The position numbers and the translations under genes are program-made. 40,015 nt of DNA, taken from positions 1 to 40,015 of the forward strand of contig JAFQUU010000032.1 in assembly GCA_017408305.1 (NCBI GenBank), written 5' to 3'. Origin of the DNA: Clostridia bacterium. Lineage in GTDB: Bacteria > Bacillota > Clostridia > Christensenellales > UBA1242. The notes below the pieces were generated by a model that ran no database searches, was not told the DNA's origin, and worked only from the letters and a program-made list of their open reading frames with translations. How positions within the stretch are numbered: the first letter of the stretch is position 1; each line of letters opens with the position of its first letter. Positions 2,789 through 35,457 of this stretch are shown here, in pieces.

Positions 2789-2843
2789 ATTTGTACAAAT
2801 ATCGCCAAAAATCCTTGGAATTTGTACAAATGTAGTGTATAAT
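2789..2843 (+). promoter_or_regulatory. Two copies of the 12-bp perfect palindrome ATTTGTACAAAT overlapping a putative promoter
   Basis: Palindrome at 2789-2800 and 2820-2831 (31-bp centre-to-centre). Candidate -35 TTGGAA at 2815-2820, 17-nt spacer, -10 TATAAT at 2838-2843. The second palindrome fills the spacer. Confidence 0.5.
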
Positions 2844-2871
2844 GCCAATGTCTAACAAAAGGAGAGCATTT

Positions 2872-3237
2872 ATGACATACAATAAAGACAAAGTAAAAAT
2901 CCAAACATCAAACATTTTGCTTCAAATTGGCATTCCTGGCAATGTGGCAGGCTCTAAGTATCTACTTAGGGCAGTTGAGATTGCCATAAACAACCCCATT
3001 GCCGTTATGTCTGTAACAAAAAACATTTATCCTATTATTGCTATGGAGTATAATACAAAGGCAACAAATATTGAACGTTCTATTCGCCATGCAATTGAAA
3101 TTTCTTGGAACAAGAACAAAATTGTTGGGCTAAACCAACTTTTTGGCATTGAAATTTACTCAAAAAAGGAAAAACCCACAAACAGTGAGTTTATTGCTCT
3201 TCTTGCAGAGCGTATCCCGTTTTTAATAACAAAATAA
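2872..3237 (+). CDS. Stand-alone Spo0A C-terminal (DNA-binding) domain protein, no receiver domain
   Basis: 'IGIPGNVAGSKYLLRAVEIAI...SVTKNIYPIIAMEYNTKATNIERSIRHAIEISW...KPTNSEFIALLAERI' parallels the Spo0A effector domain ('HIKGYLYLREAI...RVERAIRHAIEVAW...KPTNSEFIA'). ATG 2872 follows AAAGGAGAG; track start 2842 lies inside the -10 box. Confidence 0.8.
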   Translation: MTYNKDKVKIQTSNILLQIGIPGNVAGSKYLLRAVEIAINNPIAVMSVTKNIYPIIAMEYNTKATNIERSIRHAIEISWNKNKIVGLNQLFGIEIYSKKEKPTNSEFIALLAERIPFLITK

Positions 3238-12264: not shown

Positions 12265-12801
12265 TTAAGGCTCTTTGATTATGATTTTTGCGTTAATAAA
12301 ATTGATTTGTCTATGCTGTTGGTGTCTAAGTTCTGGTCTTCGAAAACATAAAAGGTCAAACGCTTCCCACACAAACACCCAAGAAAAAATGCTAATTGCC
12401 CCTTGCACAACAACCAAAATTTCTTTAAAGGTTAGGACAAGTGAAATTGTTAAAGTGCATAGGCCAATAAAAAGTGTAATTAATGCAAACCAAATATAGT
12501 TTTTCAGTTTTCTTTCGCTTTCAACAAATTCGTTATAATAGTAGTTTTTGATTGCAGTGGATATGGTTTCGTGGTCATACTTTTTTGTTGTGATTTCAAG
12601 GGTTAAGTCTTCCTTGATTGGCACATCTTTTACTGCGTTTTCCAAAAATTCAGCAAAATCGCCACTAATCACTTTTTGGTTGTTTTCTGCAAATGGCGAA
12701 ATCACATTTTTGCTATCATTAAGCGAAATTTGCACAGGGTTTGATGGTGGACTTACCCTATTTTTTTTAAGATTTCTTTTTGCTTTTCCGTACTTTGTCA
12801 T
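12265..12801 (-). CDS. Hypothetical membrane protein, 178 aa, two C-terminal TM helices
   Basis: ATG 12801 follows AGGAGA. Promoter TTGCAA (12844-12849), 17 nt, TATACT (12821-12826), minus strand. TM segments 'IWFALITLFIGLCTLTISLVLTF' and 'GAISIFSWVFVWEAFDLLCF'. The track extension to 12999 runs through the tRNA and is an artefact. Confidence 0.6.
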   Translation of the reverse strand: MTKYGKAKRNLKKNRVSPPSNPVQISLNDSKNVISPFAENNQKVISGDFAEFLENAVKDVPIKEDLTLEITTKKYDHETISTAIKNYYYNEFVESERKLKNYIWFALITLFIGLCTLTISLVLTFKEILVVVQGAISIFSWVFVWEAFDLLCFRRPELRHQQHRQINFINAKIIIKEP

Positions 12802-12863
12802 ATTTTCTCCTGATATTTTCAGTATAACAGTCCAAAAAGCAAATTGCAAATTTTTGGCAATAA

Positions 12864-12892
12864 AAAAACAAACCCGAATGGTTTGTTTTTTT
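12864..12892 (-). terminator. Terminator downstream of tRNA-Glu
   Basis: Minus strand aaacaaacc-attcg-ggtttgttt followed by a T-run. Confidence 0.6.
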
Positions 12893-12896
12893 AGAT

Positions 12897-12971
12897 TGGT
12901 ACTCCTAAGGGGAATCGAACCCCTGATTCCACCGTGAGAGGGTGGCGTCTTAACCGCTTGACCATAGGAGC
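12897..12971 (-). tRNA. tRNA-Glu (anticodon CUC), CCA encoded
   Basis: Reverse complement GCTCCTATGGTCAAGCGGTTAAGACGCCACCCTCTCACGGTGGAATCAGGGGTTCGATTCCCCTTAGGAGTACCA folds as a cloverleaf: 7-bp acceptor with G1-U72, D-loop AAGCGGTTAA, anticodon stem CCACC/GGTGG with loop CUCUCAC, T-arm AGGGG-TTCGATT-CCCCT. Confidence 0.85.
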
Positions 12972-12987
12972 ATATATTTATAAAAAT

Positions 12988-13016
12988 ATTATACCACAAA
13001 CCTTTGAGTTTTGCAA
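12988..13016 (-). promoter_or_regulatory. Promoter of tRNA-Glu
   Basis: Minus strand TTGCAA, 17 nt, TGgTATAAT. The -10 ends about 16 nt upstream of the mature 5' end. Confidence 0.6.
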
Positions 13017-13102: not shown

Positions 13103-13291
13103 ATGTTTAGGTTTGGGACAGGTTTTGGAATTCTTGAATGTCCGTTAAGTGAATTTTTTAATGAGGATATTTACGGTGAAGATGCAAATCAAGACAAAGA
13201 AGAAACGCTTGAAAATATAAAATTTTCAAACAAAAAAAAGCTAAAATACCTAAAAGTGGCCTTTGAAGAAACGCTTGATATGGAAAGATAG
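13103..13291 (+). CDS. Small protein, 62 aa, 'MFRFG' family copy 1
   Basis: ATG 13103 after AAGGGGG. Promoter TTGACT (13054-13059), 17 nt, TATATT (13077-13082). Paralogous to the next ORF. Confidence 0.55.
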   Translation: MFRFGTGFGILECPLSEFFNEDIYGEDANQDKEETLENIKFSNKKKLKYLKVAFEETLDMER

Positions 13292-13301
13292 GGAGTAGGT
13301 T

Positions 13302-13508
13302 ATGTTTAGATTTGGTTATGGCATTGCACCGTTAAATTGCAAATTAAGTGAATTTAACCACGAAAAAGGTAAACCAACAAATGAACCCGTGAAGCGTAAG
13401 TTTTACAATTCTTATGCGTTTCAAGAAGAACCATTGAAATATAAGAAAAAAAAGAAGTTGAACAGTAAACCAAAAACTTTTGAAGAAGAATTTGATGTGG
13501 AGAGATAA
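13302..13508 (+). CDS. Small protein, 68 aa, 'MFRFG' family copy 2
   Basis: Shares 'MFRFGxG....C.LSEF' at the N-terminus and 'FEEx.D.ER' at the C-terminus with copy 1. SD GGGAG lies upstream. Confidence 0.55.
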   Translation: MFRFGYGIAPLNCKLSEFNHEKGKPTNEPVKRKFYNSYAFQEEPLKYKKKKKLNSKPKTFEEEFDVER

Positions 13509-13567: not shown

Positions 13568-13933
13568 ATGAATAAACTTGATAAAATCCATAAAGAACTA
13601 GATTTTTATACGCAAACAGGCTTGGCGATTAAACTCAACTCTTTACGTGCGGCAAGAGCAAGCCTAAAAATTGATACAGTCAAGTATTCAATTGTTGGAG
13701 CGAGTGTTGGATTGTTTGGTGGCGTGGGAGAGTTTTTGCTTGCAAGTAGGATTGAGGATTGGAATTGTATTCTTTCGCCTGCAGAGTTTGGGCTTGCAGT
13801 TGGGGGCACCGCTTTTATTTGCATAAGTGCTGTGCCTATAGGCTGTTATTTGTTTCACAAACGCAAATTTTTAAAAAATTATGAAAAAAACAAGGATATT
13901 AAAATTCCACTTGGTGATGAATTAAAAATGTAG
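13568..13933 (+). CDS. Small membrane protein, 121 aa, two TM helices (holin-like topology)
   Basis: ATG 13568 after AAGGAGA. TM segments 'YSIVGASVGLFGGVGEFLLAS' and 'FGLAVGGTAFICISAVPIGCYLF', with a basic C-terminal tail. Confidence 0.55.
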   Translation: MNKLDKIHKELDFYTQTGLAIKLNSLRAARASLKIDTVKYSIVGASVGLFGGVGEFLLASRIEDWNCILSPAEFGLAVGGTAFICISAVPIGCYLFHKRKFLKNYEKNKDIKIPLGDELKM

Positions 13934-13968
13934 GGAATATTTTTGGTGTTTTTTGCAAAAATCATGTT

Positions 13969-14373
13969 ATGAATAAAAATAAGATAGAGAAATTTTTCAG
14001 TGTTGCAGAAAAATATCTTGGTTTCCCGTATGTTTGGGGTGGTGAAAGTCCAAAAACATCTTTTGATTGCTCGGGGTTTATATACTGGGTAATGAAAAAG
14101 GCAAAACTTGGAAGAGCAAAAAGACTTACCGCCCAAAAAATTTTTTACAAGTTGTGCTATAAAATCAAAACCTGTGAAATACAAAGGAGAGACTTTCTTT
14201 TTTTTGAAAAAACATATAAAACTAATAGGCGAATAACACATGTTGGTGTGTATGCTGGAGAGGGGCTTATGCTTCATTGTGGTTCAAAAAATGGCGTTGA
14301 ATATGTGGATTTAAAATCTTCGCCCTTAAAAAACAATTTTTATTGTGCAGGTCGCCCTAAAATGTTCTTATAA
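13969..14373 (+). CDS. NlpC/P60 (C40) cell-wall peptidase, catalytic domain only, no signal peptide
   Basis: 'YVWGGESPKTSFDCSGFIYWV' (catalytic Cys) and 'ITHVGVYAGEGLMLHC' (His). Confidence 0.8.
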   Translation: MNKNKIEKFFSVAEKYLGFPYVWGGESPKTSFDCSGFIYWVMKKAKLGRAKRLTAQKIFYKLCYKIKTCEIQRRDFLFFEKTYKTNRRITHVGVYAGEGLMLHCGSKNGVEYVDLKSSPLKNNFYCAGRPKMFL

Positions 14374-14375
14374 AA

Positions 14376-14405
14376 AATCGCCACTTCGATAGTGAAGTGG
14401 CGATT
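14376..14405. terminator. Hairpin repeat A1 (bidirectional terminator)
   Basis: Perfect 12-bp stem aatcgccacttc/gaagtggcgatt, loop gatagt, flanked by A6 and T4. Confidence 0.8.
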
Positions 14406-14714
14406 TTATTTTTCATGTTCTTGCTCTAATGAGTTTAAGTTCTTCAAGTGTTTTGCAAGGTTTTTATTTCTAATATTTATTACTGATTGTTTAAGTTTGG
14501 AAAACTTTGGTAAGTCTATGCCAGGCACAAAAACACAGCACCAATTACGCCTGTATGTTCTTGCACCTTTCTCAACCCCCTCGGCTTTTTGCATACTTTT
14601 AAAGTCTTTCCACCAGCTATAACCTTCACGAATTTTACCATTGCCTAAAAGATAAATTTTATTAGTTTCGAAATTTAATCTACCTATTTTCATGCCACCT
14701 GAACCACCTGGCAT
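14406..14714 (-). CDS. Small basic protein, 102 aa, 'KIGRRP' family copy 1 (long form)
   Basis: AAGGAGG SD. Promoter TTGACA (14767-14772), 17 nt, TATAAT (14744-14749), minus strand. Paralogous to 14825..15127, 15227..15397 and 15436..15615. Confidence 0.7.
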   Translation of the reverse strand: MPGGSGGMKIGRLNFETNKIYLLGNGKIREGYSWWKDFKSMQKAEGVEKGARTYRRNWCCVFVPGIDLPKFSKLKQSVINIRNKNLAKHLKNLNSLEQEHEK

Positions 14715-14794
14715 AATATTTACCTCCTTTCTGCTTTGACTATATTATATTTTGAGAGAAGAAAATTGTCAAACAAATTAAATCACATAGCAAA

Positions 14795-14824
14795 AATCAC
14801 TACTTCGATAGTGAAGTGGCGATT
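14795..14824. terminator. Hairpin repeat A2
   Basis: Same hairpin as A1 with two changes in the left arm (one mismatch, one G-T pair). Lies directly after the stop of copy 2. Confidence 0.7.
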
Positions 14825-15127
14825 TTATTTTTCATGTTCTTGCTCTAATGTGTTTAAGTTTTTCAAGTGCTTTGCAAGGTTTTTATTTCTAATATTTATT
14901 ACTGACTGTTTAAGTTTGGAAAACTTTGGTAAGTCTATGCCAGGCACAAAAAGACAACACCAATTGCGCCTGCCAGTTGTTGCACCTTTTTCAATCCCCA
15001 AACCTTTTCGCATACTTTTATTTTCTTTAAGCCAATCATAATCATCACGAATTTTAGCGTTACCTAAAAGCCCCATTTTCTTAGTTTCAAAGTTAAGGGT
15101 TCCCATAGGCCTTCTTCCAATTTTCAT
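14825..15127 (-). CDS. Small basic protein, 100 aa, 'KIGRRP' family copy 2 (long form)
   Basis: AAGGAGA SD. Promoter TTGACT (15177-15182), 18 nt, TATAAT (15153-15158), minus strand. The C-terminal 44 aa differ from copy 1 at 2 positions. Confidence 0.7.
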   Translation of the reverse strand: MKIGRRPMGTLNFETKKMGLLGNAKIRDDYDWLKENKSMRKGLGIEKGATTGRRNWCCLFVPGIDLPKFSKLKQSVINIRNKNLAKHLKNLNTLEQEHEK

Positions 15128-15193
15128 AATGTCTCCTTTTGTATTTTTAAGTATTATACGATAATAGTGTATGAAAAGTCAACAATATAGCAA

Positions 15194-15223
15194 AAATCGC
15201 CACTTCGATAGTGAAACAGCGTT
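15194..15223. repeat. Hairpin repeat A3 (decayed copy)
   Basis: Left arm and loop identical to A1 (aatcgccacttc gatagt). Right arm mutated (gaaacagcgttt), so the stem is largely lost. Confidence 0.6.
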
Positions 15224-15226
15224 TGA

Positions 15227-15397
15227 TTACCAGTCATTTCTGCGAGATTTGGCATCTTTAGCAATACCCTTGCCTTTTGCCATTCTTTCGTTTTCTTTAA
15301 ACCAATCGTAGTCGTCCCTTAAAGGGGTGTTGCCAAAAAGGTAAATCCTTTTTGTTTTAAAACCCAAAGGACCAGTAGGTCTTCTTCCAATTTTCAT
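15227..15397 (-). CDS. Small basic protein, 56 aa, 'KIGRRP' family copy 3 (short form; absent from the ORF track)
   Basis: Hand translation: MKIGRRPTGPLGFKTKRIYLFGNTPLRDDYDWFKENERMAKGKGIAKDAKSRRNDW*. An in-frame ATG two codons upstream (15403) is also possible. Weak SD AAGAGAG. Probably co-transcribed with copy 4. Confidence 0.6.
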   Translation of the reverse strand: MKIGRRPTGPLGFKTKRIYLFGNTPLRDDYDWFKENERMAKGKGIAKDAKSRRNDW

Positions 15398-15435
15398 ACT
15401 CATCTCTCTTTTTCAGTTTCATAATTATTTTATAA

Positions 15436-15615
15436 CTACCAGTCATTTCTGCGAGATTTGGCATCTTTAGCAATACCCTTGCCTTTTGCCATTCTTTCGT
15501 TTTCGTTAAACCAATCGTAGTCGTCCCTTAAAGGTGTGTTTCCCATAGTATATATTTTTTTTGTTTTGAAATCCAAACTGCCCGTAGGTCTTGTTCCAAT
15601 TTTGCAACCCGGCAT
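15436..15615 (-). CDS. Small basic protein, 59 aa, 'KIGRRP' family copy 4 (short form; absent from the ORF track)
   Basis: Hand translation: MPGCKIGTRPTGSLDFKTKKIYTMGNTPLRDDYDWFNENERMAKGKGIAKDAKSRRNDW*. SD AAGGAGGAAGG. Promoter TTGACT (15659-15664), 17 nt, TATAAT (15636-15641), minus strand. Confidence 0.65.
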   Translation of the reverse strand: MPGCKIGTRPTGSLDFKTKKIYTMGNTPLRDDYDWFNENERMAKGKGIAKDAKSRRNDW

Positions 15616-15745
15616 ATTCCTTCCTCCTTATATCAATTATACTCATGATAATTTATATAGTCAATCGAAATCTCAAAAAACACTGGTTTTATTGACTTTG
15701 GGACTTTTATTTGTTATTCATTTAATAATGAAGGAGCAGAAGGTT

Positions 15746-16123
15746 ATGTTTACTTTTTTGGTTGATTTAACATTAAGGTTTCCTGAAGATGTAAACCTTG
15801 ATGAGATTGAAAGAATTTTGGGCATGAAAGCAACAAGTAAGAAAACAAAAAAAGAATCAAAAAGCAAAAACAAATTTGCACGCATAAGTTTTTACACATC
15901 ACGCAAAAGAAGCACTAATCCCTCACAAGTGCTTGAAGACTTTTTGCTTAAAATTCACGAGAATATAAAAAAAGTTCCAGAAATCCTAAAAAAATATAAT
16001 GGAAGGGCATATCTTTGCCTAATCATGAATTTCTCTGAGTATGTGCCTACAGTTTTTCTATCTCAAACAGTTATTGATATTCTTTCAGAGTGCAAAATAG
16101 AATTTGACCTGGACTTTATGTAA
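15746..16123 (+). CDS. Hypothetical protein, 125 aa, resembles the DUF4279 pattern
   Basis: ATG 15746 after AAGGAG (ATG 15728 is also possible). Layout 'F.F...L.F.ED..LDEIERILGMKAT...' and ending '..IEFDLDFM' recalls DUF4279, from memory only. Track start 15536 overlaps copy 4 on the opposite strand. Confidence 0.45.
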   Translation: MFTFLVDLTLRFPEDVNLDEIERILGMKATSKKTKKESKSKNKFARISFYTSRKRSTNPSQVLEDFLLKIHENIKKVPEILKKYNGRAYLCLIMNFSEYVPTVFLSQTVIDILSECKIEFDLDFM

Positions 16124-16145
16124 AAGCCAATAACTGTTTAACGCA

Positions 16146-16179
16146 AAAATCGCTATTCCACTATGGGAATAGCGATTTT
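16146..16179. terminator. Hairpin repeat B1 (bidirectional terminator)
   Basis: 14-bp stem aaaatcgctattcc/ggaatagcgatttt with a 6-nt loop. Part of the 38-nt perfect repeat 16139-16176. Confidence 0.8.
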
Positions 16180-16180
16180 A

Positions 16181-17326
16181 TTATTTTTCTTGTTCAAAAT
16201 TTTGCCTTTGGTTGTCAGTTAATGATTTCCGCAAAACAGACTTCTTAAGTTGTTTAAGTTTAGTAAATTTAAACATATTAGATTGTTTTTCTTGTTTTTC
16301 CTCAAAGTCTTTAATTTTTTTATCAAGTTCGGGAATTGAGTGGTTGCAAAGTGCCAACAATTTTTGAAGTTTTTTGTTTTGTATGTAACATTCTTGTTCC
16401 CAATGATTTTTCAATATACATTTTGGAAATTTTTTAGGGTTATATTTTTCTTCATGAACATTGTAATGATATACTTTAACATTTTCTATAATTTGCTGAG
16501 GGATAGGGCATCCTAATTCAATAAGCTCAGCAATTGTGGAGCTTGCAAGCAAATAACAATATTCGTAATGGAAAGCATATGAATCTTTTAATTTTTGTTT
16601 ATTGCAAAAATAAGAATACAGTGTAATCTCATTGTCAAGATACCTTGGATAAGGAAGTCCATTCCTTGTAAACCAACTGATTGTGTCTAAATTAATTCCT
16701 ATAATCTTCAACGCCTTTTCTTCAAATGTATGTATTACTGGCATCTTGATTCCTACGGTTTTCGCCAGCATAACTTCTTCGGTTGTATAATAAGAATTTT
16801 CTTTTGCCTTTACCTTTCTTTGTTTGTTTCTTGCTAAAAGAAATTTTGTTATGTCTTTAGAAATTAGTTCTGCATCTTTTTTCCAACCATATTTCCTATA
16901 AGACCTTAAAATACTTACGTTGTGATAATATCGACATTCACAGTAATTTTCTCTAATGCTTTTTTCTTGTTCGGTTTGTTTAACTTTAGGTCCATATGCA
17001 TTTCTAAAAAGTTGCAATTGTTGATATGGCGAAAATTGTTCTTTAACAAAAGCTGGAATGCTGTTTATACTTTCCACAAAACCACTTTTTGCTGGTTCTC
17101 CGTATAAAGTTATGATTTGTTGATAATGCCTCATTCCAGAATCTTCATCATAAAAACTTACTGTTACGCCACCGTATTGGTCCTTATAATAAACAGTATC
17201 CAACTTATCAAATGGCTGAAAGCCTCTTCTTACGATTTTATCGCCTGTTGCAAGTTCTAGATAGTAAATGGTGGTATCATCTTTTTCGTTTGGGTCTTTT
17301 TCCCTGATTTCTTCAAAGTAATGCAT
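16181..17326 (-). CDS. Hypothetical protein, 381 aa, no recognised domain; K/Q/E-rich C-terminal tail
   Basis: GGAGA SD. Promoter TTGACA (17377-17382), 17 nt, TATACT (17354-17359), minus strand. The gene plus its promoter are bracketed by the B1/B2 repeats. Confidence 0.65.
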   Translation of the reverse strand: MHYFEEIREKDPNEKDDTTIYYLELATGDKIVRRGFQPFDKLDTVYYKDQYGGVTVSFYDEDSGMRHYQQIITLYGEPAKSGFVESINSIPAFVKEQFSPYQQLQLFRNAYGPKVKQTEQEKSIRENYCECRYYHNVSILRSYRKYGWKKDAELISKDITKFLLARNKQRKVKAKENSYYTTEEVMLAKTVGIKMPVIHTFEEKALKIIGINLDTISWFTRNGLPYPRYLDNEITLYSYFCNKQKLKDSYAFHYEYCYLLASSTIAELIELGCPIPQQIIENVKVYHYNVHEEKYNPKKFPKCILKNHWEQECYIQNKKLQKLLALCNHSIPELDKKIKDFEEKQEKQSNMFKFTKLKQLKKSVLRKSLTDNQRQNFEQEK

Positions 17327-17385
17327 TTTTTATTCTCCGTAAATTGTGATAAAAGTATAAATCAAATTTAAAAATTTGTCAATAG

Positions 17386-17423
17386 TAACGCAAAAATCGC
17401 TATTCCACTATGGGAATAGCGAT
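17386..17423 (-). terminator. Hairpin repeat B2 (terminator in the minus direction only)
   Basis: 38 nt identical to 16139-16176. On the minus strand the stem is followed by TTTTTG; on the plus strand it is followed by atatgatg, with no T-run. Confidence 0.7.
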
Positions 17424-17431
17424 ATGATGCT

Positions 17432-17589: not shown

Positions 17590-18540
17590 TTATCTTTCCC
17601 TTTTGCCATTTTTTACATCTTCGATTATTTCATCTAAAGATTGAAATTCTCTGCGAATTCTGTCTTTCGCTAATTTAAATTTAAGTTTTAATTTTGAGTA
17701 TTTAAGGTTTGATTTTCTTTGGAACTTTTTTATAGTTTCAAGGTTTGAACAACTGATAATTTGGTTTGTTAGGTCTTTGTATTTGAAAAACAATTCTTTT
17801 TGTGCTCTGGTTGGCATATAATACAGTTTTTGATTTTTAGTACAATCACGTCGTGGTTGGCCAGGGTCTTTTTGGAAGCCAAGTTCTGTTATAGCCTTAT
17901 TAATTGAGTTGGTTTGAAGGCCCATAAGTTTTAGGTCAATTGCCATTTTGCAAAGAATTTTTGCATCAAAATGATACATCCCTTCAAGAGGAGTGTATTC
18001 GTAAGATGGTTTTATTAGTTCTTGGGCACCTATAATGGTTTTTGAGTTTACATAGTAAGGTTCAAAAGGCAAAACCTTGTGAGTTGTTCTTGCAAAAAGG
18101 GTTTGGGTGTACTTTTCTGTAAATAATTGCAAATCTTGTTTTGTAAAAATGTTTTTCTCAGTTTCGCAATTTTTTGTCATAAATTTCCATGCTAAAAGTA
18201 AAGTGTCTTCGTGAGGTTTAACAAATGAAGACTGAAGATAAAGTGAACTTGTTGAAATATAACAAAGTGTTGTTTCATCGCAAAATTTTTGCATATACAA
18301 ATCCAAAAAGTGTGAAAACAAATTATTTTGTTTTGAGTTTTCCATGAGTGGAATAATCTGCTTTGGGTTATAAGAATCTATATAATCACTTTTATCAATA
18401 TTTTTTATATTGGTTTCTGGTGGCAGGTTTTGAATTTTTTGAAGTTTCTTGTAAAGTTGCTTGGCTGAAATAAGCCCGTCATGATAATCTTCAAGGCCTT
18501 GTTCAAAATCTTCATATAATTCACGAGGTATTTTTTGCAT
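17590..18540 (-). CDS. Hypothetical protein, 316 aa, paralogue of the next gene
   Basis: ATG 18540 ('MQKIPREL') lies 6 nt after AAGGAG. Track start 18567 has no SD. Shares '..FTKxDLQxFxxKYxxTLFARTTH...GMYxxD..IL...PG.P.....QKL.YMPT..QKELF.KY..LT' with 18611..19405. Confidence 0.65.
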   Translation of the reverse strand: MQKIPRELYEDFEQGLEDYHDGLISAKQLYKKLQKIQNLPPETNIKNIDKSDYIDSYNPKQIIPLMENSKQNNLFSHFLDLYMQKFCDETTLCYISTSSLYLQSSFVKPHEDTLLLAWKFMTKNCETEKNIFTKQDLQLFTEKYTQTLFARTTHKVLPFEPYYVNSKTIIGAQELIKPSYEYTPLEGMYHFDAKILCKMAIDLKLMGLQTNSINKAITELGFQKDPGQPRRDCTKNQKLYYMPTRAQKELFFKYKDLTNQIISCSNLETIKKFQRKSNLKYSKLKLKFKLAKDRIRREFQSLDEIIEDVKNGKRER

Positions 18541-18610
18541 TTGTTTCTCCTTAGGCTCAAATAACATATGCTTCGGTTTTTGTCAAGCAAATAAACTTTT
18601 TTAAAAATTT

Positions 18611-19405
18611 TTAAAGATTTTTTTCTTGTTCTTTTTCAAGAAATTTTTGCTTGTATCTTTCCATATATTCTTTTTCTTTTTTCCTTCTTTGATAAGCCTT
18701 TTCTATTCCTTCGGCTAAGGTTGGAAATGGGCAATACTTTTGTGCAAAACGCTGTAGTTTATGTTTGCGTCTTGTTAATTTTGCGTGTTCTTTTTTTCTC
18801 AACATACTAACTGTTTCTGGCGTAGGGAAAGCGATAATGTGCTTGGTAAGTTCACGGTATTTAAGAAACAATTCTTTTTGCTGATAGGTTGGCATGTATT
18901 GAAGTTTTTGAGGTCTTGTAAAATCAAATTTTGGCTCGCCTGGGTCAACTTGAAAACAAAGGTTATTAATTGCTTTTTCTATGCTTTGTAGTTTTAAACC
19001 ATGATTTGCTAGTTCAGAGGCCATATAAAACAAAATTCTTACATCATGATAATACATACCACTAAGGGCTTCGTAAAACCAAAAGGGTTGAACCAGTTCT
19101 TTTCCGCCTACAATTGTGTCAGATTTAACCCAATAAGGTTCTTCCGTATATAAAGGATGAGTTGTCCTTGCAAAAAGTGTTTCAACATATTTATCTACAA
19201 AATATTGCAGGTCTCTTTTAGTAAAATAGTTTCCATTTTTTTCACAATTAAATGCCCAGAAACGCCACTTAGAAAGCAGGGCTTCTTCATAAGGTGCAAC
19301 AAAAGACCTTCTAACTTTCAAGCCACCATTATCGTGCTTTGTTGTGGTATCGTGGCAAAATTCTTCTAAATATTTGTCAAGTTCAGAGTGTGTTTCTTTC
19401 ATCAC
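18611..19405 (-). CDS. Hypothetical protein, ~264 aa, paralogue of the previous gene
   Basis: Start uncertain: GTG 19405 (9 nt after AAAGGA) or ATG 19402. The track start (TTG 19456) is the first three bases of a TTGACA -35 box. Confidence 0.6.
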   Translation of the reverse strand: MMKETHSELDKYLEEFCHDTTTKHDNGGLKVRRSFVAPYEEALLSKWRFWAFNCEKNGNYFTKRDLQYFVDKYVETLFARTTHPLYTEEPYWVKSDTIVGGKELVQPFWFYEALSGMYYHDVRILFYMASELANHGLKLQSIEKAINNLCFQVDPGEPKFDFTRPQKLQYMPTYQQKELFLKYRELTKHIIAFPTPETVSMLRKKEHAKLTRRKHKLQRFAQKYCPFPTLAEGIEKAYQRRKKEKEYMERYKQKFLEKEQEKNL

Positions 19406-19427
19406 TGTCAAATGTCCTTTAACATTT

Positions 19428-19456
19428 TGTATATCAAGAATATATTTTTTTGTCAA
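19428..19456 (-). promoter_or_regulatory. Promoter of the 264/316-aa paralogue pair
   Basis: Minus strand TTGACA (19451-19456), 17 nt, TATACA (19428-19433). Confidence 0.55.
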
Positions 19457-32593: not shown

Positions 32594-33049
32594 CTAAATT
32601 TTTTCTTGTTGAATTGTTTTTTGTTTTTCAAAAGAAATAAAACCTTTATTATTTTCAATAACAAAAAATCCAAATCTACCAGTTATTGTTACTGGGTTAA
32701 TTGGTTCAAATCTTAAATTACAAGTATTTACAGCCCTTGCTCCATTTGCCAAAGATGTTGTGATGTGTGGGGTTTTGGGAGTATTGTTAATATCAAAATT
32801 TTTAAACAAGTCTTTAAATTTGTCATCAAAGGCTATTTCAAATCCACTGTTTTCGTTGTTATTGCCATAGCCAATAAGACTTACATCGACATTTTGGCCG
32901 ACAAATTGGTTAAACAATTCAATCTCATTTGGCCTAAAAGCAAAAGTACAGTGGAAGTTGTTTGGTAAAAATTCCAAGCGTTGTTTTTCATTGTCAGAAA
33001 TTATTTTTGAGTTTTCTTTATTAAAAAATATTCCAAAATATTCAACCAT
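32594..33049 (-). CDS. 2H-phosphoesterase superfamily protein (LigT/YjcG-like size), 151 aa
   Basis: Two H-x-T/S motifs at typical spacing: 'FHCTFAF' and 'PHITTSL'. Confidence 0.6.
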   Translation of the reverse strand: MVEYFGIFFNKENSKIISDNEKQRLEFLPNNFHCTFAFRPNEIELFNQFVGQNVDVSLIGYGNNNENSGFEIAFDDKFKDLFKNFDINNTPKTPHITTSLANGARAVNTCNLRFEPINPVTITGRFGFFVIENNKGFISFEKQKTIQQEKI

Positions 33050-33055
33050 ATTTAA

Positions 33056-33084
33056 ATTATATTCTGTAAAAATTCAAAAGTCAA
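33056..33084 (-). promoter_or_regulatory. Promoter of the 2H gene in a leaderless arrangement
   Basis: Minus strand TTGACT (33079-33084), 17 nt, TATAAT (33056-33061), then 6 nt to ATG (33049). No SD. Confidence 0.65.
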
Positions 33085-33156
33085 ACGCTTTGAATTATTT
33101 TTCCATAAGAAAGTTTTCAATAATTTCCTTAGCATTAGGGCTACATAAGTCAAATT

Positions 33157-34245
33157 TTATTTTTGATGTAAAAGTTTTTTTGTTTCAATTTTAGGTTTTG
33201 GCTTTGGCGTAATCGATTTGAGGTCTATTGGCCTTTCAAGGTATTTCAAAAACAATGTTCTCATGTTTGCAATTTCCAAGTTTTCAAGGTATATTTGCAG
33301 TTCAAGTTCCTCTTGGGTTTCTTGTTGCTGTTGTTTGAGGGTGGAAGTAGGTTCGATGTTTTGTAGGTCAAGAGGCGTGTCAAGAAAATCAAAAAGCACT
33401 TTTTGGGCAAGACGCTTACCATATTCCTCTTGTAAATGTTGTTTTTTGTATGTTATTTTTTTTATTTTTTGCTTAAATTTTAAATGTGGTATATATTCAA
33501 CCTTGCCGACAAAAACAGGGAATGACTGATGTTTGTAATCTTTTTTTAAGTAAGGAAGGAAACGGCCTTCTCTTTTAATATCTTTAACAAAATCATCAAA
33601 ACTTATGGCAGATGCAGTTGTTGCCAAAAGTTTTTGGTTAATTTCGCTAATTTTTTGTGGGATATTAAAAGGTTTGTTGCCTATAAGATGGTGGTCAAAA
33701 GAAATAAGTTGAAGCCCAAGAAGCGTGCTTTCTGCCATAATTTGTGCATCATGTGGAAATTTATTAGGGTCATCTCTTAAAAAAGGTTTTTTGCGAATTT
33801 GAAGTGAAAGTGGAATATTGTTAGGAAATGCCGGTTTTTGAACATAGGCATTTGCGAGGTCATTAAATTTGGTTTTATAATCGCCAATAAATCCTTCATT
33901 GATATATGCAATTTTGATGTTTTGATTTTGGGTAAGAAATTTTTTTGAAATATTTTTAAAATAAAGAATATTATTAAGTTTTGTCATCTTGTCGGCAGTC
34001 ATAACCTTTTGTGCTGAAAGTTTTATTTGTGGTTTTCTTATTACTTCACGAAAAACAGTAAGTGGCACAACAAGTTCAATTTTGCCCAAATCAACCATTT
34101 TGCTTAGCCATAATAGGTTTTTGTAAGTTGTTTCTGACACTTTGTTGTAATAAAAAAATTTCTCTTTGGATAATAGACTCGCCATAGCCATATATCCCAA
34201 AACATTTGTGTCTATTGCAAACCTAATTTTTGTGATTTCTGTCAT
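33157..34245 (-). CDS. PIN-like domain protein with large insertion and repeat-containing C-terminal region, 362 aa
   Basis: 'IRFAIDTNVLGYM', 'LVVPLTVFREV' and 'HDAQIMAESTLLGLQLISFDHHL' match the PIN acidic-residue blocks. ATG 34245 after AAGGA. Confidence 0.55.
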   Translation of the reverse strand: MTEITKIRFAIDTNVLGYMAMASLLSKEKFFYYNKVSETTYKNLLWLSKMVDLGKIELVVPLTVFREVIRKPQIKLSAQKVMTADKMTKLNNILYFKNISKKFLTQNQNIKIAYINEGFIGDYKTKFNDLANAYVQKPAFPNNIPLSLQIRKKPFLRDDPNKFPHDAQIMAESTLLGLQLISFDHHLIGNKPFNIPQKISEINQKLLATTASAISFDDFVKDIKREGRFLPYLKKDYKHQSFPVFVGKVEYIPHLKFKQKIKKITYKKQHLQEEYGKRLAQKVLFDFLDTPLDLQNIEPTSTLKQQQQETQEELELQIYLENLEIANMRTLFLKYLERPIDLKSITPKPKPKIETKKLLHQK

Positions 34246-34332
34246 TTTTTGTCCTTTTTTTTCAAGGTGGAATATACCATAAAAAACCCCCTTTGGCAAG
34301 GAGATTGCGTAAATGCATTCTATTAAAAAATA

Positions 34333-35457
34333 CTATTGTTTAAAGGTTAAATAGCCACTTCCTTCTTGGTTTTTGTTAAAAGTGATAGGTTCGCAGTTTT
34401 CTGTTAAGATTTTCTTGATTTCAAAAGGGGTAAGTGCTGGATTTTGTTCAAGAAGCAGTGCAGAAACCCCAGCAACCATAGGTGTTGCAACGCTTGTGCC
34501 ACTAAGTTTGGTATATGGGGAAGTTATTCCACACGAAGTAATGTCAACTGCTGGGGCAACAAGGTCGGGCTTAAAGTTTTCAAGGGCTGGTCCTCGAGAA
34601 GAAAAGTCTGCAATTTCAAAGTATTCTGGCAAAAAGCTTTGCTCATCAATTCGGTTATCATCAAACCCACCAACCGTTATGATTTTTCTGCTTATACCTG
34701 GGCTTTTTATGGTTTTGTATTCAGGGCCACTATTGCCGGCAGCACTGACAACAACCAAATTCTTTTCCCAAAGTTTTTCTGCCCCTTGCATAATTGGGTC
34801 ATTTTCGCCAAGTGGTTCACTTCCAAAACTCATGCACACAACCTTGATGTTATATTTTTTGTGATAGTCGTAAACCCATTGCATAGCCTCTAAAATTTTT
34901 AAAGAGTTTGCTTCGCCTCCGTTATCTAATGCTTTGATTGCGATAATGTTTGATTTTGGGCATATACCACTATATTTTCCGTTAGACATTATACCACTGC
35001 CACTGCCTACACCTGCAACAAAAGTGCCATGCCCGTTGTCATCGTAAGGAAAAATACGATGATTAATGAGGTCTACAAATTTGATAATTCTGTTTTTGCC
35101 AAGTGTAAAGTCAAGATGTGGCGAAATGCCGGTGTCAATGTATGCAATTGTTTGGTTTTGGCCACTGCCTAGGGCTTGTGTTCCTATAATTTGCTTAGCA
35201 ATATTTATCATTGTAAAAACCTGTGTTTGGCTTGAGGCAAAAGTAACGCTTTTATCCAAAAAAAGGGTTTTTATTTCTTCCTTAGGTCCACAAACCGAAA
35301 TTGCATTTATAAATGGTAAAATTCCCAAGATTTTTATGTTTGTGTTTGCCAAAGTGCATTTTAGGCTTTCAAGATTATTTGTACGAAGCAAGCAATTAAT
35401 TTTTGCTTCAGTGGCATTTGAAAGCGTTTTTGCAAGAAGGTCATCATGTTTTTTCAT
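34333..35457 (-). CDS. Subtilisin-like serine peptidase (S8), AprX-like, no signal peptide
   Basis: Catalytic triad blocks 'AYIDTGI', 'HGTFVAGVGSG', 'SGTSVATPMVAG' and oxyanion 'AAGNSG'. Confidence 0.85.
   Translation of the reverse strand: MKKHDDLLAKTLSNATEAKINCLLRTNNLESLKCTLANTNIKILGILPFINAISVCGPKEEIKTLFLDKSVTFASSQTQVFTMINIAKQIIGTQALGSGQNQTIAYIDTGISPHLDFTLGKNRIIKFVDLINHRIFPYDDNGHGTFVAGVGSGSGIMSNGKYSGICPKSNIIAIKALDNGGEANSLKILEAMQWVYDYHKKYNIKVVCMSFGSEPLGENDPIMQGAEKLWEKNLVVVSAAGNSGPEYKTIKSPGISRKIITVGGFDDNRIDEQSFLPEYFEIADFSSRGPALENFKPDLVAPAVDITSCGITSPYTKLSGTSVATPMVAGVSALLLEQNPALTPFEIKKILTENCEPITFNKNQEGSGYLTFKQ

What the first reader, a model, noticed from the sequence alone, without database searches (positions are those of the whole stretch)
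14406..15615. Four-copy family of small basic proteins with 5'-variable / 3'-near-identical (mosaic) genes and very strong expression signals
Four minus-strand genes encode paralogues sharing 'KIG(R/T)RP.G.L.F.TK+iy..GN..+R+DYDW.KEN..M.KG.GI.K.A...RRN(D)W'. Two of them are under 60 aa and missing from the ORF track. They fall into two pairs. Copies 1 and 2 are 159/166 nt identical over 14388-14553 vs 14807-14972, then drop to roughly 60-65% identity. Copies 3 and 4 are 102/104 nt identical over 15228-15331 vs 15437-15540, then diverge. The 3' halves are therefore homogenised with sharp boundaries, while the N-terminal ~25 codons vary. That fits recent gene conversion or cassette recombination, or diversification of the N-termini. 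Copy 1 has a consensus TTGACA-17-TATAAT promoter, copies 2 and 4 have near-consensus TTGACT/TATAAT promoters, and all three have AAGGAG-type SDs. I do not recognise the family.
Basis: seen in the sequence. Interest (0 to 1): 0.65.

Follow-up and report, generated by a model that had tools for sequence, protein, structure and literature searches.

The report
Orphan small basic protein gene array
Four tandem genes in an uncultured ruminant-gut Clostridia chromosome encode a small basic protein family with no known relatives, and the copies overwrite each other's 3' ends by gene conversion; the family is real and new, but the evolutionary process is ordinary and the function is unknown.

Summary
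Four minus-strand paralogues are present and the quoted identities are exact (159/166 and 102/104). Three consensus or near-consensus sigma-70 promoters drive three transcription units: c4-c3, c2 and c1.

New points:
- c1 and c2 carry a 44-residue C-terminal tail (CC.FVPGIDLPKFS...EQEHEK) that c3 and c4 lack. The near-identical c1/c2 segment is this tail plus the shared terminator, not the family core.
- Both core and tail are under purifying selection (dN/dS about 0.05-0.5), so these are real genes.
- Gene conversion is supported by significant breakpoints (p<0.0005), fourfold lower dS in the tract, and conflicting relationships with orthologous arrays in related strains.
- c1 also has a strain-hypervariable central segment.
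- Independent assemblies reproduce the locus.

The family is an orphan. About 16 clusters exist among 5.8 billion proteins, all from ruminant-gut metagenomes. Pfam, NCBIfam, PHROGs, PADLOC, phage and plasmid records, IMG/VR and GTDB genomes give no hit. AlphaFold gives no confident fold.

The array lies in a strain-variable island between a DUF4279 immunity-type gene and a holin-like/NlpC-P60 pair. Other members sit beside defence genes. Function is only inferred: abundant cytoplasmic polyanion-binding proteins, possibly conflict-related.

The parts
14406..14714 (-). c1: 102-aa paralogue. Core is 14541-14714 (58 aa, MPGGSGGMKIGR... type); the 44-aa tail is 14409-14540.
   Evidence: ORF. SD AAAGGAGG lies 8 nt before the ATG. 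Orthologues in L007, L098 and L101 show dN/dS <1 in the tail.
14825..15127 (-). c2: 100-aa paralogue. Core is 14960-15127 (56 aa, MKIGRRPMG... type); the 44-aa tail is 14828-14959.
   Evidence: Core dN/dS vs L007 is 0.04/0.16. The tail is discordant with its orthologue.
15227..15397 (-). c3: 56-aa paralogue without tail. An upstream in-frame ATG at 15403 would give 58 aa. Probably co-transcribed with c4.
   Evidence: the L007 orthologue starts with GTG at the equivalent of 15397. No promoter-like site lies between c4 and c3.
15436..15615 (-). c4: 59-aa paralogue without tail, first gene of the c4-c3 unit.
   Evidence: Compared with the L007 orthologue there are 4 synonymous and 1 non-synonymous differences.
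14744..14772 (-). Promoter P1 for c1: TTGACA-17-TATAAT (12/12).
   Evidence: It is the only 12/12 site in the window and is identical in L007.
15153..15182 (-). Promoter P2 for c2: TTGACT-18-TATAAT (11/12).
15636..15664 (-). Promoter P4 for c4-c3: TTGACT-17-TATAAT (11/12).
   Evidence: It is conserved in L007.
14374..14407 (.). Bidirectional hairpin terminator after c1, shared with the convergent NlpC/P60 gene. Related copies lie after c2 (14793-14826, weakened) and after c3 (15198-15221).
   Evidence: Folding energies are -21.1, -12.6 and -9.9 kcal/mol. This hairpin type occurs only in the island.
14373..14553 (-). Conversion tract 1 (tail plus terminator). Its partner is 14792-14972 in c2.
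   Evidence: 159/166 identity; breakpoint p<0.0005; tail dS 0.18 vs core 0.71; site patterns.
15228..15331 (-). Conversion tract 2 (the last ~34 codons of c3). Its partner is 15437-15540 in c4.
   Evidence: 102/104 identity; breakpoint p<0.0005. c3 in L007, L098 and run X2 has a different 3' end.
15746..16123 (+). DUF4279 gene (125 aa), divergent from c4. It is the constant left neighbour of the array in L007, L098 and L100.
   Evidence: Pfam E=2e-11. It is 97-99% identical between strains. DUF4279 is the FdL-Imm5 immunity family (PMC9424270).
13568..14373 (+). A 2-TM holin-like protein (121 aa) and a signal-less NlpC/P60 hydrolase (13969-14373), convergent with c1. They are the usual right neighbours of the array.
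   Evidence: Pfam NLPC_P60 E=2e-19; sequences; neighbourhoods.

Best explanation
This is a genuine, lineage-restricted family of small, strongly basic, hydrophilic proteins (56-59 aa core). It is kept as a four-gene tandem array in a strain-variable chromosomal island of an uncultured Christensenellales-like gut Clostridia species.

Shown:
- There are three transcription units, P4-c4-c3-T, P2-c2-T and P1-c1-T. Each has a consensus-grade sigma-70 promoter, and each promoter-proximal gene (c4, c2, c1) has a strong SD.
- c1 and c2 are the core fused to a 44-residue, probably helical, Cys-Cys-containing tail.
- Both core and tail are under purifying selection.
- The '5'-variable / 3'-identical' mosaic comes from ectopic gene conversion between neighbouring paralogues. 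The tracts end at the stop codon or terminator. In the lineage shared by the window and L098, the c2 tail was overwritten by the c1-type tail. In the window's own strain, the last third of c3 was later overwritten by c4.

Inferred (about 35-40% likely):
- The products are abundant cytoplasmic proteins that bind a polyanion (RNA, DNA or the ribosome).
- The tail adds dimerisation or metal binding.

Inferred (about 30-40% likely):
- The family takes part in inter-genomic conflict. This rests on its island context, its narrow distribution, the hypervariable c1 segment, and the defence or immunity genes next to members.
For: Genes and signals.

Coding:
- The ORFs are conserved in all strains.
- Tail dN/dS is 0.05-0.35 in most comparisons. 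Core dN/dS is 0.05-0.47.

Conversion:
- Breakpoints have p<0.0005 in the window pairs, against p=0.06-0.08 in L007.
- dS in the tract is 0.18 vs 0.71 in the core.
- The four-taxon site patterns switch from the orthology pattern to W_c1=W_c2=L007_c1, differing from L007_c2, at the W-CC junction.
- Recombinant L103 has core dS 0.06 to L007 c1 but tail dS 0.15 to L007 c2.
- The c3 tail is polymorphic in an independent run.

Not an artefact:
- The Logan unitigs of run X1 are identical to the window.
- One 1259-nt contig of run X2 spans c2, c3, c4 and DUF4279.
- The same array is present in L007, L098, L008-L010 and L100.

Orphan status.

Physical properties: pI 9.7-10.5, GRAVY -0.6 to -1.2, no TM segment or signal peptide.

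Context:
- DUF4279 and NlpC/P60 are the neighbours.
- A SpbK-like TIR protein (1.5e-48) and a Lit-like peptidase lie beside P0013.
- An rve integrase lies beside P0012.
- The island is absent from the 80 nearest GTDB species.
Against: - No expression data exist, because no RNA run holds the locus.
- There is no confident structure: pLDDT is 50 for both models, from an alignment with Neff of only about 1.8. Binding to nucleic acid is therefore inferred from charge alone.
- DUF4279 is nearly invariant between strains, and it is missing from the other two family contexts. The conflict reading thus rests on neighbourhood only.
- The direction of each conversion is inferred from a handful of strains.
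- Two orthology-pattern sites remain inside the converted c2 tail. The event may therefore be patchy or older than a single clean tract.
Confidence: 0.7

Rival explanations
1. Effector/immunity module. The small cationic proteins would be leaderless toxins or bacteriocin-like effectors. They would be made constitutively, neutralised in the producer by the adjacent DUF4279 immunity-type protein, and released by the adjacent holin-like/NlpC-P60 lysis pair, as in colicin-type release.
For: - DUF4279 is an immunity family of polymorphic toxin systems (PMC9424270).
- The order DUF4279, array, NlpC/P60 plus 2-TM protein is conserved in L007 and L098. NlpC/P60 also follows the long copy in L102 and L105.
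- The genes are tandem, cationic and leaderless, and c1 has a hypervariable segment.
Against: - No toxin domain is detected.
- The proteins are very hydrophilic, unlike membrane-active leaderless bacteriocins.
- DUF4279 is upstream and divergent rather than downstream and co-directional. It is invariant while c1 varies, and it is absent beside P0013 and P0015.
- No transporter gene is present.
Confidence: 0.12
2. Translation-associated small basic proteins: accessory ribosome-binding factors or paralogue-like ribosomal proteins.
For: - Size, charge and very strong constitutive signals resemble ribosomal proteins.
- Two unrelated contexts lie beside translation genes. The array is upstream of typA/nusA/infB, and P0015 lies in an insertion between rpsG and fusA.
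- There is a weak bS21 hit (E=0.2).
Against: - The bS21 hit is not significant, and hhalign to bL28 gives probability below 1%.
- The family is absent from all close relatives.
- It sits in a variable island, and the single-copy members lie beside defence genes instead.
- A hypervariable segment is atypical for ribosome components.
Confidence: 0.1
3. The 3' near-identity reflects stronger constraint (protein- or RNA-level) on an old shared tail, not gene conversion.
For: The tail is under purifying selection (dN/dS 0.05-0.35) and includes the terminator.
Against: - Synonymous divergence is also fourfold lower in the tract.
- In L007 the same two tails differ at 29 of 132 coding positions.
- The window c2 tail is closer to the c1 tails than to its own orthologue's tail.
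- The same logic applies to c3/c4.
Confidence: 0.05
4. A programmed cassette-switching (antigenic-variation-like) system that deliberately shuffles segments among copies.
For: Mosaics of core types and two tail alleles recur across strains. A 381-aa neighbour flanked by 43-nt hairpin repeats has moved within the island.
Against: - There is no recombinase and there are no silent, promoterless donor cassettes. c4, c2 and c1 have their own promoters and c3 follows c4.
- The proteins have no export signal.
- The divergence inside the tracts (dS 0.18) indicates rare, old events rather than frequent switching.
- The unitigs of run X1 show a single form.
Confidence: 0.04
5. Assembly artefact (collapsed or duplicated repeat), or non-coding or spurious ORFs.
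For: Repeats of 100-180 nt can confuse short-read assemblers. Two of the ORFs are shorter than 60 aa.
Against: - Independent assemblies from several samples and two assemblers give the same four-gene order.
- The copies differ enough to be resolved.
- dN/dS is below 1 and the SDs and promoters are conserved.
Confidence: 0.03

Closest known systems
Concerted evolution of tandem bacterial paralogues by ectopic gene conversion (for example tufA/tufB; general principle from established knowledge)
   Same: There are tracts of near-identity with statistically sharp ends, reduced synonymous divergence inside the tract, and a tree conflict between the tract and the rest of the gene.
   Different: The genes here are tiny (171-309 nt) and the tracts cover only the 3' part. 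The tract ends coincide with the stop codon or terminator. One tract is a C-terminal extension present in only two of the four copies.
Polymorphic toxin / immunity loci with DUF4279 (FdL-Imm5) immunity proteins (Li, Tan & Zhang 2022, PMC9424270)
   Same: A DUF4279 gene is the fixed neighbour of the array. The locus is strain-variable, the 3' segments are mosaic, and the setting is an accessory island.
   Different: There is no toxin domain, no trafficking domain and no signal peptide. The immunity gene is divergent and upstream, and it is invariant. The family also occurs without DUF4279.
Leaderless multi-peptide bacteriocins (aureocin A70, enterocin L50 type; from established knowledge)
   Same: Several small cationic, Trp-containing, leaderless peptides are encoded in tandem with strong signals.
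   Different: These proteins are highly hydrophilic (GRAVY -0.6 to -1.2) and have no amphipathic or hydrophobic stretch. The island has no ABC transporter.
Fur-regulated basic proteins (FbpA/B/C) and similar small basic RNA-chaperone-like proteins of Firmicutes (from established knowledge)
   Same: They are of similar size (about 50-60 aa), have a high pI, occur as several paralogues, and have no recognisable domain.
   Different: There is no sequence similarity, no Fur box or sRNA partner was looked for or seen, and the promoters look constitutive.
PsbR (photosystem II 10 kDa protein) and ribosomal protein bS21: the best PDB sequence hits
   Same: There is a short motif resemblance, ET.K..L.G..K....DW......KG.GV, to Chlamydomonas PsbR (E=0.012). 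bS21 scores E=0.2.
   Different: Neither is significant once the other searches are counted. The Pfam PsbR and S21 models do not hit at E<=1, and homology to PsbR is biologically implausible.

Membership tests
Tandem multigene family under ectopic gene conversion | Significant change-point in paralogue divergence | tested here: met
   Max chi-square p<0.0005 for c1/c2 and for c3/c4.
Tandem multigene family under ectopic gene conversion | Synonymous divergence reduced inside the tract | tested here: met
   Tail dS 0.18 vs core dS 0.71 for window c1/c2.
Tandem multigene family under ectopic gene conversion | Tract and flank give conflicting relationships with orthologues | tested here: met
   The window c2 core groups with L007 c2, while its tail groups with the c1 tails. 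L103 is a reciprocal mosaic. The c3 end equals c4 only in the window strain.
Polymorphic toxin-immunity module (DUF4279/FdL-Imm5 type) | Recognisable toxin domain in the partner protein | tested here: not met
   No hit in Pfam, NCBIfam, PADLOC or PHROGs.
Polymorphic toxin-immunity module (DUF4279/FdL-Imm5 type) | Immunity gene immediately downstream of and co-directional with the toxin gene | tested here: not met
   DUF4279 (15746-16123, +) is upstream of and divergent from c4.
Polymorphic toxin-immunity module (DUF4279/FdL-Imm5 type) | N-terminal signal or trafficking domain on the toxin | tested here: not met
   The proteins are 56-102 aa with no hydrophobic N-terminus.
Leaderless multi-peptide bacteriocins | Amphipathic or hydrophobic helical peptide | tested here: not met
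   GRAVY is -0.6 to -1.2. The maximum 15-residue Kyte-Doolittle window is at most 0.4 in the core.
Leaderless multi-peptide bacteriocins | Adjacent dedicated transporter or immunity genes | tested here: not met
   No ABC transporter is present in the 11.3-19.5 kb island.
Type I toxin tandem repeats (Ldr/Ibs-like) | Small hydrophobic membrane peptide | tested here: not met
   No TM segment.
Type I toxin tandem repeats (Ldr/Ibs-like) | Overlapping antisense RNA | not testable with these tools
   No RNA-seq run holds the locus. Rfam finds nothing except the tRNA.
Ribosomal proteins bS21 / bL28 | Significant sequence or profile similarity | tested here: not met
   bS21 scores E=0.2. hhalign to E. 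coli and B. subtilis bL28 gives probability 0.1-0.3%.
PsbR (PSII 10 kDa protein) | Significant similarity reproduced by an independent model | tested here: not met
   The PDB-only hit has E=0.012. No Pfam hit appears at E<=1. It would not be significant at the scale of the 1.84-billion-protein search.
Phage or plasmid gene | Relatives on phage, viral or plasmid records | tested here: not met
   Nothing significant in INPHARED phages (one tblastn hit at E=0.2; no blastn match). No match in PLSDB, IMG/VR or PHROGs.

The most novel reading that the evidence does not exclude
The array is the effector part of an undescribed conflict system. Constitutively made, leaderless, cationic mini-proteins would be kept harmless by the neighbouring DUF4279 immunity-type protein and released through the adjacent holin-like/NlpC-P60 pair. 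Two of them carry an exchangeable Cys-Cys helical tail. Gene conversion and a hypervariable central segment would generate strain-specific variants.
Probability: 0.1. Interest if true: 0.7.

Novelty: new member of a known kind. Interest (0 to 1): 0.33.

Why it matters
If real, as the evidence indicates, this adds one more lineage-specific small-protein family to the large unannotated fraction of gut-microbe genomes. Two of its genes are short enough to be missed by default gene callers.

It is a clean, well-bounded natural example of gene conversion acting on very short genes, and of a C-terminal module being swapped among paralogues.

Its practical value is modest unless a function is found. 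The constant pairing with a DUF4279 immunity-type gene and a lysis-like pair, and the defence genes next to single-copy members, make a conflict role testable by simple expression and toxicity experiments.

Tried and rejected
- Known-family match. Pfam, PHROGs, PADLOC and NCBIfam gave nothing for any copy.
- Remote homology.
  - The word-indexed search of 5.8 billion proteins found 13 clusters, and 16 after the profile was extended.
  - The exhaustive HMM search of 1.84 billion representatives found 4 true clusters and one spurious repeat protein.
- Structure. Two AlphaFold runs gave pLDDT of about 50 and mutually inconsistent secondary structure. Fold search was therefore not run, because its matches would be meaningless.
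- PsbR and bS21 hits in the PDB were judged to be chance.
- A recalled resemblance of GRRP.G...TKR to the bL28 N-terminus was rejected by hhalign. An AT-hook reading of GRRP was rejected because the Arg-Arg-Pro is not conserved (absent from c1 and P0015; c4 has TRP).
- Tail shared with the 381-aa neighbour. BLASTP gave E=0.055, but a tail-only HMM does not find that protein at E<=50. Only the terminator type is shared.
- Genome-wide REP element. The AAATCGC...GCGATTT hairpin occurs only inside the island.
- Phage, plasmid or viral origin. Nothing significant: one tblastn hit at E=0.2 in phage records, otherwise no match.
- JGI metagenomes and GTDB genomes held no relatives.
- S8-PTS reading of the S8 peptidase at 34.3 kb. 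The neighbouring 380-aa protein has no signal peptide and a PIN-like start, so this was not pursued.
- Expression evidence. No RNA run was available.
Full report
**What is there.** Region 14.4-15.6 kb carries four minus-strand ORFs:
- c1, 14406-14714, 102 aa.
- c2, 14825-15127, 100 aa.
- c3, 15227-15403, 58 aa.
- c4, 15436-15615, 59 aa.

They share a core of about 56 residues, (M)KIG.RP.G.L.F.TKKIYLLGN..IRDDYDW.KEN..M.KG.GI.KGA.T.RRNW. An HMM of the family finds exactly these four copies in the window.

c3 and c4 stop right after the terminal Trp. c1 and c2 continue for 44 more codons: CC(V/L)FVPGIDLPKFSKLKQSVINIRNKNLAKHLKNLN(S/T)LEQEHEK. The near-identical c1/c2 segment is this tail plus the terminator, not the 3' half of the shared core.

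**Expression signals.**
- The promoter scan places TTGACA-17-TATAAT (12/12) before c1. It places TTGACT-18-TATAAT and TTGACT-17-TATAAT (11/12) before c2 and c4.
- In the whole window there are 12 sites of at least 11/12, against 2.6 expected. The c1 site is the only perfect one.
- The SDs are AAAGGAGG (c1), AAAGGAGA (c2) and TAAGGAGG (c4).
- c3 lies 32 nt behind c4 without a promoter and with a weak SD. Its orthologue in L007 starts with GTG at the second Met position. c3 is therefore most likely 56 aa (15227-15397) and co-transcribed with c4.
- A hairpin of one sequence family follows c1, c2 and c3. Folding energies are -21.1, -12.6 and -9.9 kcal/mol.
- That hairpin type occurs only inside this island.
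- No RNA-seq run holding the locus could be found, so expression is inferred from sequence only.

**Are the genes real?**
- Orthologous arrays exist in related strains or species: L098 (typA 99.8% identical), L007 (typA 95%), L008-L010, and L100-L105.
- Nei-Gojobori estimates give dN/dS of 0.05-0.47 for cores, and 0.05-0.35 for tails in most comparisons.
- The tail frame stays open in all 11 tailed sequences, despite 33% GC.
- Both core and tail are therefore translated and constrained.
- Independent Logan assemblies reproduce the locus. The unitigs of run X1 match with no differences. Run X2 has one 1259-nt contig across c2, c3, c4 and DUF4279. An assembly artefact is excluded for practical purposes.

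**Gene conversion.** Three tests agree.
1. Breakpoints.
   - Maximum chi-square gives 39/160 vs 4/125 differences for c1/c2, and 20/72 vs 1/96 for c3/c4. Both have permutation p<0.0005.
   - The same pairs in L007 give p=0.06-0.08.
2. Synonymous divergence. For window c1/c2, dS is 0.18 in the tail and 0.71 in the core.
3. Incongruence.
   - The window c2 core is close to L007 c2 (dS 0.16), but its tail is far from it (0.65) and close to the c1 tails.
   - L103 is the reverse mosaic. Its core has dS 0.06 to L007 c1, and its tail has dS 0.15 to L007 c2.

Two tail alleles circulate over different core types...NKNLAKHLKNLN.LEQEHEK and ...NKQLAKC.KNLTSIEQE.E.

The window c3 ends like c4 (AKDAKSRRNDW). 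In L007, L098 and run X2, c3 ends KVDKPKRNDW. The timing follows from this. The c2 tail event predates the window/L098 split. The c3 event is specific to the window's strain.

With codon-aware alignment the 5' parts of c1/c2 are about 76% identical rather than 60-65%.

**Extra variation.** Between strains, c1-type genes have a hypervariable central segment of 20-23 codons:
- window: NGKIREGYSWWKDFKSMQKA.
- L007: AKVKGTSRKKDNYWKTYERMQKG.
- L105: NAKIRENYNYEKEFKRMQKG.

In this segment pN is about 0.35 and pS about 0.33, while the flanks are nearly identical. The equivalent c2 segment is conserved. One tail position switches between His and Cys (AKHL / AKCV) next to the invariant Cys-Cys. This hints at a metal site, which is an inference only.

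**What the family is not.**
- No copy hits Pfam, PHROGs, PADLOC or NCBIfam.
- A profile search of 5.8 billion clustered proteins returns 13 clusters, and 16 after the profile was extended. All come from gut metagenomes.
- An exhaustive HMM scan of 1.84 billion representatives returns four true clusters.
- GTDB species genomes, IMG/VR viral contigs, JGI metagenomes and PLSDB plasmids give no match. INPHARED phages give only one insignificant tblastn hit (E=0.2).
- The best PDB sequence hits are Chlamydomonas PsbR (E=0.012) and bS21 (E=0.2). They are not significant given all the searches made, and Pfam does not reproduce them.
- A recalled likeness to bL28 was rejected by hhalign.
- AlphaFold2 on c2 and on c4 gave pLDDT of about 50. 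The only moderately confident element is a tail helix. The alignment has Neff of about 1.8, so this does not prove disorder.
- The proteins have pI 9.7-10.5 and GRAVY -0.6 to -1.2, with no TM segment or signal peptide.

**Context.**
- The window is a chromosome segment of an uncultured Clostridia (Christensenellales-like) bacterium. Its genes include SMC, FtsY, S15, MurG, ThiI, PrmC, RF1, BipA, NusA, IF2, RbfA, TruB and EF-P.
- The best GTDB BipA match is 85%, to a water-buffalo caecum MAG. The runs that hold the locus are sheep, goat and other gut metagenomes.
- The array lies in an island of about 8 kb of unknown genes (11.3-19.5 kb) between GNAT/prfA and typA. The island's content differs between L098, L007 and the window. 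It is absent next to typA in the 80 nearest GTDB species.
- The constant neighbours are as follows.
  - A divergent DUF4279 gene (15746-16123) is 97-99% conserved. It belongs to the FdL-Imm5 immunity family of polymorphic toxin systems (PMC9424270).
  - A convergent signal-less NlpC/P60 gene is preceded by a 2-TM holin-like protein.
- Other members sit elsewhere.
  - Single-copy P0012 and P0013 lie at the edge of a variable spot. That spot holds a Lit-like U49 peptidase, a SpbK-like TIR protein (1.5e-48) or an rve integrase.
  - The divergent P0015 lies in an insertion between rpsG and fusA, with a 23S_rRNA_IVP gene and an AAA_28 gene.

**Interpretation.**
- Shown: a real, orphan, tandem small-protein family whose mosaic identity pattern is produced by ectopic gene conversion.
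- Inferred: abundant cytoplasmic proteins that bind a polyanion, about 35-40% likely. The tail would act as a dimerisation or metal-binding add-on.
- Inferred: a role in inter-genomic conflict, about 30-40% likely.

Rivals:
- A DUF4279-neutralised, lysis-released effector (about 0.12). It is weakened by gene orientation, the invariance of DUF4279, its absence from other contexts, and the lack of any toxin domain.
- A translation-associated factor (about 0.10).
- Constraint without conversion (0.05).
- Programmed cassette switching (0.04).
- Artefact or non-coding sequence (0.03).

**Verdict.** The evolutionary mechanism is ordinary. The family is new but narrowly distributed, and its function is unresolved. 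Interest is moderate to low (0.33). It would rise if the conflict-system reading were confirmed.

Noticed in passing
window 13104-13508 (+): A second tandem pair of small paralogous genes. One is about 62 aa (MFRFGTGFG...) and one is 68 aa (MFRFGYGIAPL...). They share the N-terminus and upstream repeats (D7 and D8). Orthologues of 65-80 aa are present in L007 and L098. No family hit was sought.
   Followed up: partly
window 13568-14373 (+): A 121-aa protein with two TM segments and a basic C-terminus is followed by a signal-less 134-aa NlpC/P60 hydrolase. This is a holin/endolysin-like pair with no other phage genes around it. It is conserved next to the array in L007, L098, L102 and L105.
   Followed up: partly
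window 16139-17428: The 381-aa orphan gene (16181-17326, -) is flanked by 43-nt direct-repeat hairpins (16139-16181 and 17386-17428, 95% identical). Its 92% orthologue in L007 sits downstream of c1 instead, and L098 has only a 49% relative. The gene has therefore relocated within the island, perhaps by recombination at the terminator-like hairpins.
   Followed up: partly
window 17590-19456 (-): Two adjacent orphan paralogues of 325 and 281 aa share ...FTK.DLQ.F..KY..TLFARTTH.... L007 carries three such copies. No hit in any library.
   Followed up: no
L005 64-1014 and L001 8166-9782: A defence hot spot lies next to the single-copy family member P0013. It holds a SpbK-like TIR protein (PADLOC 1.5e-48) in one strain. 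A 538-aa Peptidase_U49 (Lit-like) protein is present in L005 as well as in L001 and L002.
   Followed up: partly
L091 8630-11051: An insertion of seven small genes lies inside the str operon between rpsG and fusA. It includes 23S_rRNA_IVP, coiled-coil mini-proteins, the family member P0015 and an AAA_28 NTPase. A further 138-aa orphan lies between fusA and tuf.
   Followed up: no
window 2842-3237 (+): A stand-alone 131-aa protein consisting only of the Spo0A C-terminal DNA-binding domain (Pfam E=2.4e-34), with no receiver domain.
   Followed up: no
window 32594-35457 (-): A subtilase (S8) gene is followed by a 380-aa protein with a PIN-like N-terminus (IRFAIDTNVL) and a 151-aa orphan. The 380-aa protein has no signal peptide, so this does not fit the S8-PTS toxin architecture.
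   Followed up: partly
window 12897-12971 (-): A tRNA-Glu(CTC) gene lies inside the island. It is overlapped by the spurious 5' part of ORF 12265-12999; the real gene probably starts near MTKYGKAKRN. It could mark an old integration site, but no integrase is present.
   Followed up: no
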